Program-made: the position numbers and the translations under genes
Source: Clostridia bacterium
GTDB taxonomy: Bacteria; Bacillota; Clostridia; Oscillospirales; CAG-272
DNA length: 64,000 nt
Reading direction: 5' to 3'
Assembly: GCA_017456895.1 (NCBI GenBank)
Contig: JAFTIN010000006.1
Location: forward strand, 5,511 to 69,510
The notes under the pieces: model-generated
Told to the model about the DNA's origin: nothing
The model's input: only the letters and a program-made list of their open reading frames with translations
Database searches by the model: none
Shown: positions 1-61,473 of the stretch, piece by piece
Numbering within the stretch: position 1 is the stretch's first letter
Layout of the letters: every line of letters begins with the position of its first letter

Positions 1-934
1 CAAACACTCCAAGATCAAGCTCTGCACCACTAATAACGAAGAAGAGCACGAGAAGGGGCGCCGTCCACTTCTCCGCCCTGTTCATAAGATCCTCGGAGAA
101 GTCACAGATATTGCAGAACAGAGTGCCGAGCATCATACATGAGAGGAGCGATGAGAATGCGATATGTACCGATCCGATCGAGAGCTTAATACCGGAGATG
201 GCTACGGTAGCCATAACGAAGGCAACCGAGATCGCAATACGCTTAGAGTTAGAGTGGAAGTACCTCTCGCAGAAGGTGAAAAGACCGCCCATAGCCGCGC
301 CGAGCACTATTGAAAGAACGACCTCAAGTAAAGGATTTACCACCATAGAGATAATGTCAACGACGCCTGTTTCGATCGATTTGGCAACGCCGAAGGAGAT
401 TGCGAATACGACAAGACCTACCGCATCATCAAGTGCAACAATGGGTAGAAGAAGGTCGGTCAATTGGCCCTTTGCCTTATACTGTCTGACAACCATCAGG
501 GTAGCTGCGGGAGCAGTCGCGGTAGCAACTGCACCAAGGATAATGGCGGCGGACATCGGGAATACATCGTTACCTACGATAAGAGAAAATGATATAAGGG
601 CTACATCAACCACAATGCCGGTAAAGAGCGCCTGAAATACGCCGATTATGGTAGCTTGTCTTCCAATCTTTTTAAGCTGGGAGAGCCTGAATTCGTTACC
701 GATAGCAAAGGCTATGAAGCCAAGTGCCAGATCACAAAGTATCTTATAATGCTCAGGCGAATTGTCCGTCGGATTGAAACCGATGCCAATACGTCCCAGC
801 AAAAACGGACCGATAAGAACACCCGCAACCAGGTAAGCAGTAACAGCGGGAAGTCCGACAAGTTTTGCCAATCTCGAGAGCATAAGGCCCGCGAGCAAAG
901 CTATAGATAAAGTCAAAAGTACTGTCGTAGTCAA
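1..934 (-). CDS. cation:proton antiporter (Na+/H+ exchanger family), N-terminal part; the gene continues past the left edge
   Basis: My own minus-strand translation from TTG 934 (GAAGG 8 nt upstream) gives LTTTVLLTLSIALLAGLMLSRLAKLVGLPAVTAYLVAGVLIGP...LALGFIAFAIGNEF, a typical CPA-family N-terminus with many TM helices. It is not in the ORF track because it is open at the edge. Confidence 0.75.
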   Translation of the reverse strand, partial: MTTTVLLTLSIALLAGLMLSRLAKLVGLPAVTAYLVAGVLIGPFLLGRIGIGFNPTDNSPEHYKILCDLALGFIAFAIGNEFRLSQLKKIGRQATIIGVFQALFTGIVVDVALISFSLIVGNDVFPMSAAIILGAVATATAPAATLMVVRQYKAKGQLTDLLLPIVALDDAVGLVVFAISFGVAKSIETGVVDIISMVVNPLLEVVLSIVLGAAMGGLFTFCERYFHSNSKRIAISVAFVMATVAISGIKLSIGSVHIAFSSLLSCMMLGTLFCNICDFSEDLMNRAEKWTAPLLVLFFVISGAELDLGVF

Positions 935-32522: not shown

Positions 32523-32525
32523 CTA

Positions 32526-32914
32526 ATAAAAAAGGCTTCCCGACGGGTTCCTACCATAAAGCAGGTTTTGAACTACCGAACAAAGAAAAAGGAGTACGGA
32601 CAATTTTGTTCGTACTCCTCTTCATACGCCTTGCCTGCAAGGTATAGTGTGTTACATCTTACGGTGTTCTGTCGGGCGGTAATTGTTGAAAAGTGATATG
32701 CCTCGCACGGCACGGCGTGATATTTTTGCTCCGCAAAAGTGATATTGCTCCCGCTGGTCGCATTGATATTCTATTCGCCTCTTTCTTCCAACGTGCGTAG
32801 CGCATATCACGTCCAAAGGACATATCACGCACGAAGTGCATATCACTCGCCGTAGGCGAATAGAGTTGGCGCACCTGCTTTATCGCAGTTGCGCCGACGG
32901 AAGCCTTTTTTATT
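32526..32914. repeat. ~390-bp inverted-repeat-bounded modular element (BOX/MITE-like) with GTGATAT heptamer arrays
   Basis: ATAAAAAAGGCTTCC and ATAAAGCAGGT occur at identical 30-nt offsets at both ends in inverted orientation. Four (G/T)TGATAT lie on the plus strand (32693, 32717, 32739, 32763) and three on the minus strand (32804, 32822, 32840). Confidence 0.75.
32581..32619 (-). terminator. rho-independent terminator for leftward transcripts
   Basis: 13-bp stem aggagtacggaca/tgttcgtactcct. The minus strand continues tttttctttg. Confidence 0.7.
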
Positions 32915-32929
32915 TTGTATAAGAAGGTG

Positions 32930-60904: not shown

Positions 60905-61473
60905 TTTTCGTCACCTCTGTATATCAGTACGTTTACCGAGGTCTTTTTGCCGTACGAGGTGCTCTTGACAAACTCAAAGCCCGCGAGTCTTTGATCGCCC
61001 TCCTCGACGGTCTCGGTTCCGCTCTCAAGAACAAGTATGGCGCCGGGAATAATCAGCTCCGCGTCGCGAAGGCGCACCGCCGAGTCGACACAGCACTCCA
61101 TAGCGTAAGGAGGATCGATAAAAACAAGATCAAATTTGTCCCTGCCGGAAGCCTTTCTTATATAGTTGCGATAATCCGCAATCGAAAACTTTGATTTATC
61201 GAAAAGATCGAGATCCTTTGCGTTGCGCTTAACAATATCCATAGCATCACGCTCGGAGTCAACGAAAGTAACCGACTCTGCGCCTCTTGAGAGCGCCTCA
61301 AAGCCGAGCTGCCCGGAACCTGCAAAGAGATCAAGCACTCGTCTGTTTTCTATATCAAACTGTATGGAAGAAAAGATAGCTCCCTTTATCCTTTCCGAGG
61401 TAGGTCGGGTAGCCTCCCCCTCAAGAGTAATAAGCTTTCTTCCCTTTTTGCTTCCTGTAATAATTCTTACCAT
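60901..61473 (-). CDS. rsmD: 16S rRNA (guanine966-N2)-methyltransferase
   Basis: MVRIITGSKKGRKL...TRPTSERIKGAIF, DLFAGSG, FIDPPY. ATG 61473 lies 1 nt after the uvrC stop. Confidence 0.85.
   Translation of the reverse strand: MVRIITGSKKGRKLITLEGEATRPTSERIKGAIFSSIQFDIENRRVLDLFAGSGQLGFEALSRGAESVTFVDSERDAMDIVKRNAKDLDLFDKSKFSIADYRNYIRKASGRDKFDLVFIDPPYAMECCVDSAVRLRDAELIIPGAILVLESGTETVEEGDQRLAGFEFVKSTSYGKKTSVNVLIYRGDEK

What the first reader, a model, noticed from the sequence alone, without database searches (positions are those of the whole stretch)
32526..32914. Inverted-repeat-bounded modular element of GTGATAT heptamers alternating with mini-hairpins between convergent genes
This element fills the spacer between the alpha/beta-hydrolase gene (stop 32522) and the flavodoxin-like gene (stop 32930). 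Both ends carry ATAAAAAAGGCTTCC (32526-32540; reverse complement at 32899-32913). Exactly 30 nt further in, both carry ATAAAGCAGGT (32556-32566; reverse complement at 32873-32883). That block sits in the loop of local hairpins whose stems differ in sequence (GGTTC/GAACT versus GGCGCA/TGCGCC). Inside the element, four (G/T)TGATAT heptamers lie on the plus strand at 22-24-nt spacing. Three lie on the minus strand at 18-nt spacing, so the two arrays converge on ~32785. On the right arm each heptamer is separated by a triloop mini-hairpin of different sequence but the same shape (plus strand: GCG-tag-CGC, GTCC-aaa-GGAC, GCAC-gaa-GTGC, TCGCC-gta-GGCGA). The left arm has TTTTGC-tcc-GCAAAA. A strong leftward terminator (32581-32619) implies that the flavodoxin-gene transcript runs through the array as a ~310-nt 3' UTR. 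The architecture resembles modular BOX/MITE-like repeats of Firmicutes, or a protein-binding repeat array (sponge- or iteron-like). I cannot assign it to a named family.
Basis: seen in the sequence. Interest (0 to 1): 0.65.

Follow-up and report, generated by a model that had tools for sequence, protein, structure and literature searches.

The report
Gut-1 structured repeat inside a terminator
This 350-base spacer is one copy of Gut-1, a known but still unexplained structured RNA element of gut bacteria; here it lies inside the transcription terminator shared by two convergent genes, and it is real, widespread and probably spreads by insertion.

Summary
The repeats, heptamers, mini-hairpins and terminator lie at the stated coordinates.

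The element has a name. Rfam's Gut-1 RNA model (RF01706) matches the minus strand at 32799-32868 with 51 bits (gathering score 50). Gut-1 is an orphan candidate sRNA described in 2010.

Comparison with at least 48 related elements from gut Clostridia MAGs shows a larger conserved unit, 32547-32893 on the minus strand:
- a 5' hairpin;
- a covarying long-range helix that encloses the Gut-1 array (GUGAUAU linkers);
- a mirror array of AUAUCAC linkers, which is more strongly conserved;
- further hairpins and the element's own terminator.

The unit is a dispersed repeat. It follows a co-directional gene or a tRNA/rRNA operon in 35 of 40 loci. It is flanked by locus-specific halves of a bidirectional terminator and by short direct repeats. 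It is absent from the syntenic spacer of related species.

Its function is unknown. My best reading is an insertion-prone, transcribed structured module whose heptamers form a multivalent binding platform. The only recurrent neighbour is an Avd-like four-helix-bundle gene (PF05635), found in 7 loci.

Verdict: new member of a known kind; moderate interest.

The parts
32547..32893 (-). Conserved repeat unit (the whole element, about 347 nt)
   Evidence: blastn homology to L014 (82%), L107 (84%) and L012 (95%) stops at 32545/32550 and 32895. DNA-metagenome contigs of other copies break at 32545-32547.
32899..32914 (-). 5' flank: A-run plus GGCTTCC, the left half of the host bidirectional terminator (outer stem)
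   Evidence: It forms a 16-bp perfect inverted repeat with 32525-32540. The sequence is locus-specific: relatives carry different flanks of the same type.
32525..32540 (-). 3' flank: GGAAGCC plus T-run, the right half of the host terminator (outer stem)
32894..32900 (.). 7-nt direct repeat CCGACGG (plus strand), upstream copy in element orientation
   Evidence: (D6). Removing the unit and one copy rebuilds AAAAAAGGCTTCC-GTCG-GGAAGCCTTTTTT on the minus strand.
32540..32546 (.). 7-nt direct repeat CCGACGG, downstream copy
   Evidence: (D6)
32868..32895 (-). P0: 5' hairpin GGCGCAACTGC-GATAAA-GCAGGTGCGCC
   Evidence: Relatives have a hairpin of 10-17 bp here with an unrelated sequence (464 Watson-Crick pairs, 1 G-U, 3 A-C).
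32799..32868 (-). Match to Rfam RF01706, Gut-1 RNA (array 1)
   Evidence: 51.0 bits against a gathering score of 50, E = 3.7e-9 in the local search, full model positions 1-77.
32854..32864 (-). 5' strand of the long-range helix (UCUAUUCGCCU). It overlaps the 5' strand of local hairpin P1 (P1 = 32847-32859).
   Evidence: (I4): 11 nt, 100% complementary to 32770-32780. Covariation in relatives is shown.
32804..32846 (-). Array 1: three GUGAUAU linkers (32840-46, 32822-28, 32804-10) with mini-hairpins at 32829-39 and 32811-21. A third mini-hairpin lies at 32793-32803.
   Evidence: (D1)
32770..32780 (-). 3' strand of the long-range helix (AGGCGAAUAGA), between the two arrays
32693..32769 (-). Array 2 (mirror array): on the minus strand AUAUCAA, then AUAUCAC three times. 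These are the plus-strand heptamers at 32763, 32739, 32717 and 32693. Hairpins lie at 32746-62, 32724-38 and 32700-16.
   Evidence: The plus strand gives only a weak Gut-1 match (27.8 bits).
32629..32642 (-). Small conserved hairpin CCUUGCAGGCAAGG in the 3' extension
   Evidence: Conserved in L107 and L014.
32580..32622 (-). T1: the element's own intrinsic terminator (hairpin 32587-32622 plus a U-run on the minus strand)
   Evidence: (I2). It is conserved in L107 and L014. The T-run is present only on the minus strand.
32550..32566 (-). 3' terminal P0-like hairpin ACCUGC-UUUAUG-GUAGG.
   Evidence: (I1)

Best explanation
The interval is one copy of a roughly 347-nt dispersed, highly structured element of gut Clostridia. 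Its 5' half is the Rfam family Gut-1 RNA.

Shown:
- It lies in the loop of the bidirectional terminator shared by the convergent FMN-reductase/flavodoxin-like gene and the alpha/beta-hydrolase gene.
- Its orientation is the minus strand. In that direction such elements follow a co-directional gene, and their internal terminator works.

Inferred from comparative structure: the transcript folds into six parts.
- a 5' hairpin (P0);
- an 11-bp long-range helix that closes a loop holding three mini-hairpins joined by GUGAUAU linkers (Gut-1 proper);
- a second, mirror array of three hairpins joined by nearly invariant AUAUCAC linkers;
- two small hairpins;
- the element's own terminator (T1);
- a tail hairpin.

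Inferred mechanism: the RNA is made as the 3' extension of the upstream gene. It is a stable structured module that displays 7-8 copies of one heptamer between helices, as a multivalent binding platform for a trans-acting partner. The only candidate partner with any support is an Avd-like four-helix-bundle protein (PF05635), which is encoded directly behind the element in 7 other loci.

Inferred spread: new copies arise by insertion into terminator hairpins.

My confidence by step:
- Gut-1 family membership: about 0.9.
- Transcribed and selected in the minus-strand orientation: about 0.75.
- Arrived here by insertion: about 0.65.
- Multivalent binding platform: about 0.35.
For: - Rfam match at the gathering score. 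Relatives score 53-74 bits in the same orientation.
- The architecture is conserved in 48 parsed elements from 46 loci.
- The hairpin stems differ in sequence but pair: 1217 Watson-Crick pairs against 36 other pairs. RNAalifold finds compensatory changes in 19 of 33 predicted pairs.
- In the long-range helix one position covaries: A-U 21, C-G 15, U-A 10, plus two G-U wobbles and no A-C.
- The upstream neighbour is co-directional in 35 of 40 loci. This includes 10 tRNA genes and, in L046, the end of an rRNA operon.
- A unidirectional terminator lies inside the conserved unit.
- Contigs of metatranscriptome runs carry the element.
- Homology ends sharply at 32545/32895. Depth in DNA metagenomes is 8-58 times that of the flanks.
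- Junction direct repeats are longer than in cross-locus controls: mean 4.75 against 3.39 nt, and 6 nt or more in 3 of 12 loci against 3 of 132 controls.
- The syntenic spacers of L121 and L122 hold only an ordinary terminator.
- A PF05635 gene lies directly downstream in L106, L024, L011, L009, L103, L111 and L108. In L103 no promoter lies between the array and the gene.
Against: - No stranded reads were available, so the direction and ends of the transcript are not shown. The contig ends in the RNA runs coincide with repeat boundaries that DNA runs also show, so they say nothing about RNA ends.
- The P0, array and outer stems show almost no G-U pairs and no G-U over A-C bias: 16 against 10, 1 against 3, and 4 against 3. 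That is unusual for an RNA-only structure and fits selection on both strands or on DNA.
- The two arrays are mirror images down to their loops (UNC against GNA/GNRA). A single-RNA model does not explain this.
- The array-1 heptamers are degenerate and show no compensation in array 2.
- The PF05635 link holds in only 7 of about 100 loci, and 5 of those 7 are one homologous block. No such gene lies in this window.
- Two of the best junction direct repeats are palindromic and could instead be extensions of the stem.
- No binding or function has been tested for any Gut-1 RNA.
Confidence: 0.5

Rival explanations
1. A purely selfish, non-autonomous DNA transposon (MITE-like). The inward-facing GTGATAT arrays near the two ends are subterminal binding sites for a transposase encoded elsewhere. 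The palindromes act in single-stranded or cruciform DNA. The transcript and the Rfam 'RNA' are by-products.
For: - Heptamers read inward from both sides, as in transposons with several binding sites at each end.
- Homology ends are sharp, the unit is a dispersed repeat, and the flanks are halves of a terminator.
- Junction direct repeats of 5-7 nt include bases of the terminator loop.
- Syntenic spacers without the element exist.
- The palindromes are strand-symmetric with almost no G-U.
- Loops closed by C-G are of the GNA type on the ATATCAC strand. From my own knowledge, this is the loop type that is exceptionally stable in DNA.
- The P0 loop flips between close relatives.
- A 95%-identical copy lies behind an unrelated gene in L012.
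Against: - No transposase or other conserved neighbour was found.
- Copies within a genome are few (2-5 seen) and diverged into old subfamilies, not near-identical bursts.
- The terminal hairpins are not conserved in sequence between subfamilies.
- Orientation is strongly biased relative to transcription.
- The long-range helix covaries and shows G-U only on the transcribed strand.
- The arrays sit in the core, not at the ends, in subfamilies with a long 3' extension such as this one.
Confidence: 0.2
2. A passive 3'-end module. A stack of stable hairpins with its own terminator protects upstream transcripts from exonucleases and insulates neighbouring genes, as REP/BIME elements do. No specific binding partner is involved.
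For: - It always lies just behind genes, often highly expressed ones such as tRNA and rRNA operons and groEL.
- It carries terminators.
- Both strands fold with very low energy: -152 kcal/mol, z-scores of -7.5 and -8.7.
Against: A stabiliser does not need a nearly invariant heptamer (ATATCAC in about 160 of about 175 array-2 linker positions). Nor does it need a covarying long-range helix or a fixed order of modules across families of bacteria.
Confidence: 0.12
3. Two separate convergent Gut-1 sRNA genes, one on each strand. Each is read in its GUGAUAU direction, and each ends in the other's flank.
For: - The plus-strand array gives a weak Gut-1 match (27.8 bits, E = 0.0028).
- A promoter-like site, TTCATA-16-TATAGT, lies at 32621-32648 on the plus strand and is partly kept in L107 and L014.
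- Single-array Gut-1 loci exist: L113, L036, L042, L092.
- Each array has the same loop types when read in its own GUGAUAU direction.
Against: - In many relatives a bidirectional terminator lies 10-20 nt from array 2, which leaves no room for an inward promoter.
- The promoter scan found no more sites than in shuffles.
- No array-2 reverse strand reaches the Rfam threshold in 18 loci.
- The long-range helix ties the two halves into one fold.
Confidence: 0.08
4. A double-stranded-DNA operator or iteron-like array. A DNA-binding protein occupies the heptamers to control the adjacent promoter, to block RNA polymerase, or to organise DNA.
For: - Array-2 spacing is 22-25 bp, about two helical turns.
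- In many loci a promoter starts right after the fourth heptamer, for example ATATCAC-TTGACT-17-TATAAT in L306.
- TATCACT fits the WATCACW heptad bound by the omega repressor of inc18 plasmids. This is from my own knowledge, and it is a resemblance only.
Against: - Compensatory changes in every spacer hairpin, and a helix whose arms lie about 80 nt apart, have no role in duplex DNA.
- Array-1 spacing (16-21 bp) is out of helical phase.
- This copy and many others have no promoter behind array 2.
Confidence: 0.07

Closest known systems
Gut-1 RNA motif (Rfam RF01706; Weinberg et al. 2010, PMC2864571)
   Same: The covariance model matches at the gathering score. The copy has the same module order: (A/G)UGAWAU, then the UCGCC...GGCGA hairpin, then two or three variable hairpins joined by GUGAWAU. 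Some original seed sequences (BAAZ01000095, BAAZ01025322) already show, in their unmodelled flanks, the reverse AUAUCAC array, the GGCGAAUAUA box and outer inverted repeats.
   Different: The Rfam model covers only 70 of about 347 nt. The published description gives no function, says the motif is known only from human-gut metagenomes, and treats it as a free-standing sRNA. Here the carriers are named MAGs of Oscillospiraceae, Acutalibacteraceae, Ruminococcus and Christensenellaceae, mostly from ruminant, camel, pig and human guts. The element sits at gene 3' ends inside terminators.
Bacterial MITEs and structured intergenic repeats (for example bcr1 of the Bacillus cereus group, ERIC/IRU, Correia, and RUP/BOX of pneumococcus). 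Named from my own knowledge.
   Same: It is small and non-coding, folds strongly, is transcribed with neighbouring genes and lies between genes. It has short direct repeats at the junctions and syntenic sites without the element.
   Different: Copies in a genome are few and old. The termini are not conserved in sequence between subfamilies. The internal stems evolve by compensation. No autonomous partner is known. There is no sequence similarity to those families: no Rfam hit other than Gut-1 and no blastn hit in the plasmid or phage collections.
REP/BIME/REPIN elements mobilised by RAYT transposases (from my own knowledge)
   Same: A short conserved motif lies next to a palindrome. The units are arranged in opposite orientations. 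They sit at 3' ends and between convergent genes, and they are transcribed.
   Different: REP palindromes are conserved in sequence within a genome and number in the hundreds. Here the linkers are conserved and the palindromes vary. No RAYT gene was seen near any locus.
23S rRNA intervening sequences, some of which encode PF05635 proteins (PMC10053308; also my own knowledge)
   Same: An extra structured segment is lodged in the loop of a pre-existing hairpin and closed by a stem made from the host's two halves. Some copies are linked to a four-helix-bundle (Avd-like) gene.
   Different: The host hairpin is a transcription terminator, not an rRNA helix. No RNase III excision has been shown. In most copies, this one included, no PF05635 gene lies next to the element within the DNA examined.
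Protein-titrating sRNAs with repeated motifs (CsrB/RsmZ type; from my own knowledge)
   Same: Many copies of one short motif are presented by a chain of hairpins. The gene family has several copies. Members of the family are found in metatranscriptome assemblies.
   Different: The motif is GUGAUAU/AUAUCAC in the linkers, not GGA in the loops. No partner is known. This is an analogy of design, not a shared family.

Membership tests
Gut-1 RNA (RF01706) | Covariance-model score at or above the curated gathering score | tested here: met
   51.0 bits against 50, model positions 1-77, minus strand 32799-32868. The margin is narrow, but relatives with the same architecture score 53-74 bits.
Gut-1 RNA (RF01706) | Three or four hairpins of variable sequence joined by conserved GUGAWAU linkers, the first hairpin being UCGCC...GGCGA | tested here: met
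   (alignment)
Gut-1 RNA (RF01706) | Stems supported by compensatory changes among members | tested here: met
   1217 Watson-Crick pairs against 36 other pairs in hairpins of unrelated sequence. Compensatory changes occur in 19 of 33 RNAalifold pairs.
Gut-1 RNA (RF01706) | Expressed as a non-coding RNA in the modelled orientation | tested here: inconclusive
   The element is present in metatranscriptome contigs, but these are unstranded and confounded by its repeat nature. Orientation is supported indirectly.
MITE (non-autonomous DNA transposon) | Target-site duplication flanking the unit | tested here: inconclusive
   The 7-nt repeat CCGACGG lies at 32540-46 and 32894-900. Junction repeats are longer than in controls. 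However, two of the best are palindromic and half of the loci show none.
MITE (non-autonomous DNA transposon) | Terminal inverted repeats conserved across copies | tested here: not met
   Only an 11-nt block is shared by the two ends. The end hairpins differ completely between subfamilies, and the P0 loop even flips between close relatives.
MITE (non-autonomous DNA transposon) | Many near-identical copies in one genome | tested here: not met
   One copy in this 64-kb window. Two or three diverged copies were seen per assembly. The high metagenome depth cannot be assigned to one genome.
MITE (non-autonomous DNA transposon) | Empty orthologous sites | tested here: met
   L121 and L122 are syntenic loci that carry both flanking genes, with spacers of about 60-110 nt holding one terminator. 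These are other species, so loss cannot be excluded.
MITE (non-autonomous DNA transposon) | A related autonomous element that encodes the transposase | tested here: not met
   No conserved protein lies near the elements except PF05635, which is not a transposase. Whole genomes were not searched.
REP/BIME (RAYT-associated) | Palindrome of conserved sequence with a GTAG-type motif, hundreds of copies, and a RAYT gene | tested here: not met
   The palindromes vary and copies are few. No HUH-type transposase gene was recognised near any locus, though only recurrent neighbours were annotated.
Iterons / omega-type heptad operators | Directly abutting or helically phased repeats bound as duplex DNA, next to a replication, partition or promoter function | tested here: not met
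   The heptads are separated by palindromes of 9-18 nt. Array 1 is out of phase. No plasmid or phage match was found.
23S rRNA intervening sequence | Located in helix 25 or 45 of 23S rRNA and removed by RNase III | tested here: not met
   The element lies between protein-coding genes here. In L046 it lies after the last tRNA of an rRNA operon, not inside 23S. Processing was not testable.

The most novel reading that the evidence does not exclude
Gut-1 elements may be mobile structured elements that invade hairpin loops and work together with Avd-like four-helix-bundle proteins (PF05635). That would make them the counterpart, outside rRNA, of 23S rRNA intervening sequences. On this reading the two mirror arrays of heptamers and C-G-closed mini-hairpins are the protein's multivalent binding sites, on RNA or on single-stranded DNA. 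The complex would then mediate the element's stability, processing or spread into transcription terminators behind highly expressed genes.
Probability: 0.2. Interest if true: 0.8.

Novelty: new member of a known kind. Interest (0 to 1): 0.55.

Why it matters
Gut-1 has been an orphan RNA motif since 2010. It was known only from human-gut metagenome fragments, with no host, context or function.

This copy and its relatives add four things.
- Named hosts: the dominant uncultured gut Clostridia.
- A full architecture about five times longer than the Rfam model.
- A fixed genomic setting: inside or just behind terminators of co-directional genes and of tRNA/rRNA operons.
- A first candidate partner, PF05635.

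If the insertion reading holds, this would be a class of bacterial repeat that targets terminator hairpins yet stays under structural selection. That bears on how 3' UTRs and small RNAs arise. If the binding-platform reading holds, it opens a testable regulatory RNA-protein pair in organisms that make up a large share of gut communities.

Tried and rejected
1. RNA ends from metatranscriptome contigs. The 346-nt contig in X22 (32551-32888) looked like a discrete RNA. DNA runs break at the same places and show 8-58 times excess depth, so these ends are repeat boundaries. I dropped the claim.
2. Strand from G-U against A-C counts. The hairpin arrays, P0 and the outer stems show no bias. My first outer-stem search was biased by its scoring, so I redid it with symmetric scoring. 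Only the long-range helix shows a bias, about 6 to 1, which is weak.
3. Fold-back pairing of GUGAUAU with AUAUCAC, which would give four-way junctions. The counts match (4 and 4 if H0 is included). But the array-1 heptamers vary at positions 3-4 with no compensation in array 2, so the idea is unsupported.
4. Complementary kissing loops between the two arrays. The loops of one element do not pair up.
5. A conserved neighbouring gene. All-against-all clustering of 571 neighbouring ORFs gave only the PF05635 group.
6. Phage or plasmid carriage. There were no blastn hits. Of 119 viral-contig pattern hits, 2 are Gut-1-like and the rest are other tandem repeats.
7. Insertion polymorphism within the species. 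No joint skips the element in four DNA runs, and a strain 3.5% diverged also carries it.
8. Stranded raw reads. None were available for any carrier.
9. Literature. No paper in the library gives a function for Gut-1.
10. The near-match ATAAGAAAGGCTTCC at 61147 lies inside a coding region and is a chance hit.
11. The cassette-array idea for L068, where three elements each precede a small gene. The shared promoter and RBS are close to general consensus sequences, so I did not pursue it.
Full report

Yes.
- Outer arms ATAAAAAAGGCTTCC lie at 32526-32540 and, as reverse complement, at 32899-32913. With up to 2 mismatches allowed, 0.19 matches were expected by chance.
- The inner block ATAAAGCAGGT lies 30 nt further in on both sides.
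- Four (G/T)TGATAT heptamers lie on the plus strand at 32693, 32717, 32739 and 32763.
- Three GTGATAT heptamers lie on the minus strand at 32804, 32822 and 32840.
- Mini-hairpins lie between the heptamers.
- A 17-bp hairpin at 32587-32622 is followed by a T-run on the minus strand only.

The flanking genes are an alpha/beta hydrolase (Hydrolase_4, Abhydrolase_1) and a protein with an FMN_red/Flavodoxin_2 domain.

Both strands of 32520-32920 fold far better than shuffles: -152 kcal/mol, z-scores of -7.5 and -8.7.

**2. It has a name.**

A scan of the window against Rfam 15 gives one hit: Gut-1 RNA (RF01706), minus strand, 32799-32868. It scores 51.0 bits against a gathering score of 50 and covers the full model.

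A sensitive local scan adds a sub-threshold match of the plus-strand array, 32691-32774, at 27.8 bits.

Gut-1 was described by Weinberg et al. in 2010 as a probable non-coding RNA. It had 43 representatives, all from human-gut metagenomes, and no function was proposed (PMC2864571).

The flanks in the original seed alignment already contain a downstream reverse array of AUAUCAC plus hairpins, a GGCGAAUAUA box and outer inverted repeats. This is seen in BAAZ01000095 and BAAZ01025322. These parts were never modelled or discussed.

**3. Relatives and the full architecture.**

I scanned one genome per species for three GTGATAT copies spaced 8-20 nt apart.

Almost all hits are MAGs of gut Clostridia: Oscillospiraceae, Acutalibacteraceae, Ruminococcus, Christensenellaceae and 'Eubacteriales'. 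They come from ruminants, deer, humans and birds.

The arrays are arranged convergently almost without exception. The only cases with the opposite order used ATGATAT heptamers (L068, L116).

From 46 loci I parsed 48 elements, which share one plan. In the orientation of the Rfam hit, the modules are:
- P0, a hairpin of 10-17 bp with unrelated sequence in different subfamilies. In the tRNA-linked subfamily it is an A-run, hairpin and T-run.
- (C)AGTTNTATTCGCC, a loop, then GGCGA.
- Three units of heptamer plus a 9-14-nt hairpin (array 1, the part Rfam models).
- GTTnnnnGGCGAATAMA.
- Four units of ATATCAC plus a 15-18-nt hairpin (array 2).
- Then either a terminator or a promoter and a gene.

Array-2 heptamers are nearly invariant. 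ATATCAC fills 47 of 48, 43 of 44, 40 of 44 and 31 of 41 positions. Array-1 heptamers are degenerate, of the form GT[GT]NTAT.

**4. Evidence for structure.**

The hairpins between heptamers have different sequences in different elements but pair almost perfectly: 1217 Watson-Crick pairs, 16 G-U, 10 A-C and 10 other. The pair that closes the loop is C-G in about 90% of hairpins.

A long-range helix joins (G)TTNTATTCGCC to GGCGAATAMA(A) across array 1. In the window it pairs 32854-32864 with 32770-32780, 11 bp with no mismatch (I4). The variable position covaries: A-U 21, C-G 15, U-A 10, one U-G, one G-U and no A-C.

RNAalifold on 37 aligned elements predicts this helix on its own account and finds compensatory changes in 19 of 33 pairs.

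The helix competes with the local P1 hairpin (TCGCC/GGCGA) of the Rfam model. In a divergent element, L068 with ATGAAAT linkers, both partners change together with the 5' strand. Both pairings therefore seem to matter.

**5. Which strand?**

Four lines favour the Rfam orientation, which is the window's minus strand.
- The upstream neighbour within 200 nt is co-directional in 35 loci (25 coding genes, 10 tRNA genes) and opposed in 5, some of which are doubtful ORFs. Downstream neighbours show no bias (19 against 14).
- In L046 the element closes an rRNA operon (23S, tRNA, tRNA, 5S, tRNA-Asn, terminator, element). In L068 it closes a five-tRNA cluster.
- Wobble pairs in the long-range helix are G-U on this strand in about 6 cases, against one A-C.
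- The conserved unit carries a terminator that works only in this direction.

Against a simple RNA-only picture, the P0, array and outer stems are perfect palindromes with no G-U excess. The two arrays are also mirror images. Read in the GTGATAT direction, each has loops TTC, TAC, TTT and TTAC. Read in the ATATCAC direction, each has GAA, GTA, AAA, GCA, GTAA and GCAA. I have no full explanation for this symmetry.

**6. A dispersed unit lodged in terminators.**

blastn of all loci against the window shows that homology to L014 (82%), L107 (84%) and L012 (95%) stops at 32545/32550 and 32895. Between loci, only element-sized segments match.

In four DNA metagenome runs, depth over 32548-32925 is 8 to 58 times that of the flanking genes, and contigs break at 32545-32547. 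The unit is therefore a repeat in these communities.

For the same reason, the metatranscriptome contigs that cover just the element prove presence in RNA libraries but not RNA ends or high expression.

The sequence outside the unit is locus-specific but always of one kind: an A-run and a GC-rich arm on the 5' side, and the complementary arm and a T-run on the 3' side. About a dozen loci show this.

Short direct repeats abut the unit and include bases that would be the terminator loop:
- window: CCGTCGG;
- L037: CCCATGG;
- L041: CCCCTTT;
- L014: CACCCT;
- L066: (C)GCTAT;
- L095: CTTTA.

Matched junctions share longer words than cross-locus controls: mean 4.75 against 3.39 nt, and 6 nt or more in 3 of 12 against 3 of 132.

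Removing the unit and one repeat from the window gives AAAAAAGGCTTCC-GTCG-GGAAGCCTTTTTT on the minus strand. That is a textbook bidirectional terminator for two convergent genes.

**7. Orthologous spacers.**

A metagenome scan with the flavodoxin-like protein returned 58 homologous loci. Forty-seven were examined for the region downstream of the gene, though several have under 100 nt there. None clearly carries the element, and one or two have isolated motif matches.

L121 and L122 are syntenic with the window. Their flavodoxin-like proteins are 83% and 80% identical to the window's. Each also has a convergent hydrolase homologue, 54% and 60% identical.

Their spacers are about 60-110 nt and contain one ordinary bidirectional terminator. 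The element is thus present here and absent in the nearest syntenic relatives found. This fits gain by insertion, although loss cannot be ruled out.

Within the species it appears fixed.

**8. What argues against an ordinary MITE.**

- Assemblies with more than one locus carry members of different, old subfamilies. Examples are L008 with L098 and L070 with L086.
- End hairpins are not conserved in sequence. The P0 loop is GATAAA in the window, L012 and L107, but TTTATC in L014, L007, L087 and L041.
- No transposase accompanies any locus.
- Phage and plasmid collections give no match.

**9. A possible partner.**

Clustering 571 neighbouring ORFs gave a single recurrent family. It is a protein of about 118 aa encoded directly after array 2 on the same strand. 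It is present in L106, L024, L011, L009 and L103, and partially at contig ends in L111 and L108.

The protein belongs to PF05635, the 23S rRNA intervening-sequence protein family, with E about 1e-28. This is a four-helix-bundle family related to the Avd accessory protein of diversity-generating retroelements (PMC10053308).

In L306 and L106 the gene has its own promoter, which abuts the last heptamer. In the distant L103 (54% identity) there is no promoter, and the arrays form the gene's 5' leader. That is the layout expected for autoregulation by a protein that binds the array.

This is a lead, not a finding. Five of the seven loci are one homologous block, and the 64-kb window has no such gene.

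**10. Mechanism, with steps marked.**

Shown:
- family membership;
- the conserved modular fold with a covarying long-range helix;
- the orientation bias;
- the repeat nature;
- flanks made of terminator halves;
- absence from syntenic relatives.

Inferred:
- transcription as the 3' extension of the upstream gene, ending at T1 (about 32580) or at the outer stem and U-run (about 32526);
- arrival by insertion into the terminator loop;
- function as a stable module that exposes 7-8 heptamers between helices to bind a multivalent partner.

The rival readings, scored in the report sections, are:
- a selfish DNA element whose heptamers are subterminal transposase sites;
- a passive 3' stabiliser or insulator;
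- two convergent sRNA genes;
- a duplex-DNA operator array.

**11. Verdict.**

The finding is real and non-random, and it belongs to a known but unexplained family. It is a new member of a known kind.

The comparative work adds an extended architecture, hosts, a genomic setting, evidence for insertion and a candidate protein partner. It does not establish a function. Interest is moderate (0.55).

Noticed in passing
L306 2847-2905. Also forward in L091 and L008, and reverse-oriented after the element's terminator in L066, L050, L019, L085, L095, L094 and L098.: A second conserved two-hairpin motif, GGGTATGGGC-ata-GCCC-g-ATGCATTTGT-aata-ACAAATGC-GAAACYGGCGATAA, often lies next to Gut-1 elements. 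In the forward cases it sits just before an RBS and a small ORF. No Rfam family matched it at the gathering threshold.
   Followed up: partly
L068 1560-3800 (minus strand): Three heptamer/hairpin elements lie within 2 kb behind a five-tRNA cluster. Their linkers differ: GTGATAT, ATGATAT (arrays in the opposite order) and ATGAAAT (Rfam 74 bits). Each is followed by a similar promoter and RBS and a different small membrane-protein gene.
   Followed up: partly
L067 900-1700: A tandem duplication of about 413 bp contains the element. The second copy is preceded by a partial 3' end of a tRNA and a different terminator hairpin, while the arrays themselves are identical.
   Followed up: no
L015 (about 7 nt after array 2), L071 (directly after array 2), L062: In tRNA-linked loci, an inverted fragment resembling a tRNA T-arm (for example TGGATTCGAACGACCGAA) follows array 2. 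It forms an outer inverted repeat with the upstream tRNA gene.
   Followed up: no
window 32868-32895 compared with L014, L007, L087 and L041: The stem of the 5' hairpin is the same in close relatives, but its loop is reverse-complemented (GATAAA against TTTATC). This means the palindrome has flipped.
   Followed up: partly
L046 1941-2853: A Gut-1 element is the last feature of an rRNA operon: 23S, tRNA-Lys, tRNA-Glu, 5S, tRNA-Asn, terminator, element.
   Followed up: partly
PF05635 protein of L106: This small four-helix-bundle protein has thousands of close relatives in gut metagenomes. All but 10 of the 8000 scored candidates had E at or below 1e-10, and the best 120 are 91-97% identical to it. 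The ten contexts read for one of these relatives (P0058, 93% identical) are the same locus: GH31 gene, Gut-1 element, this gene.
   Followed up: partly
Viral-contig loci L179-L297: Most of the 119 matches to the three-heptamer pattern in viral contigs are not Gut-1-like; many lie on contigs labelled GVMAG. Only L189 and L227 look like Gut-1 arrays.
   Followed up: partly
window 61147-61161: ATAAGAAAGGCTTCC, one mismatch from the outer arm, lies inside what reads as a coding region. It has no partner or array nearby and I judge it a chance match.
   Followed up: yes
window 32763 and 32794: This genome's copy carries two departures from the family consensus: TTGATAT in place of GTGATAT, and a C-A mismatch in hairpin C. 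The laid metagenome and metatranscriptome contigs, which come from other copies or strains, read G and C at these two places.
   Followed up: yes
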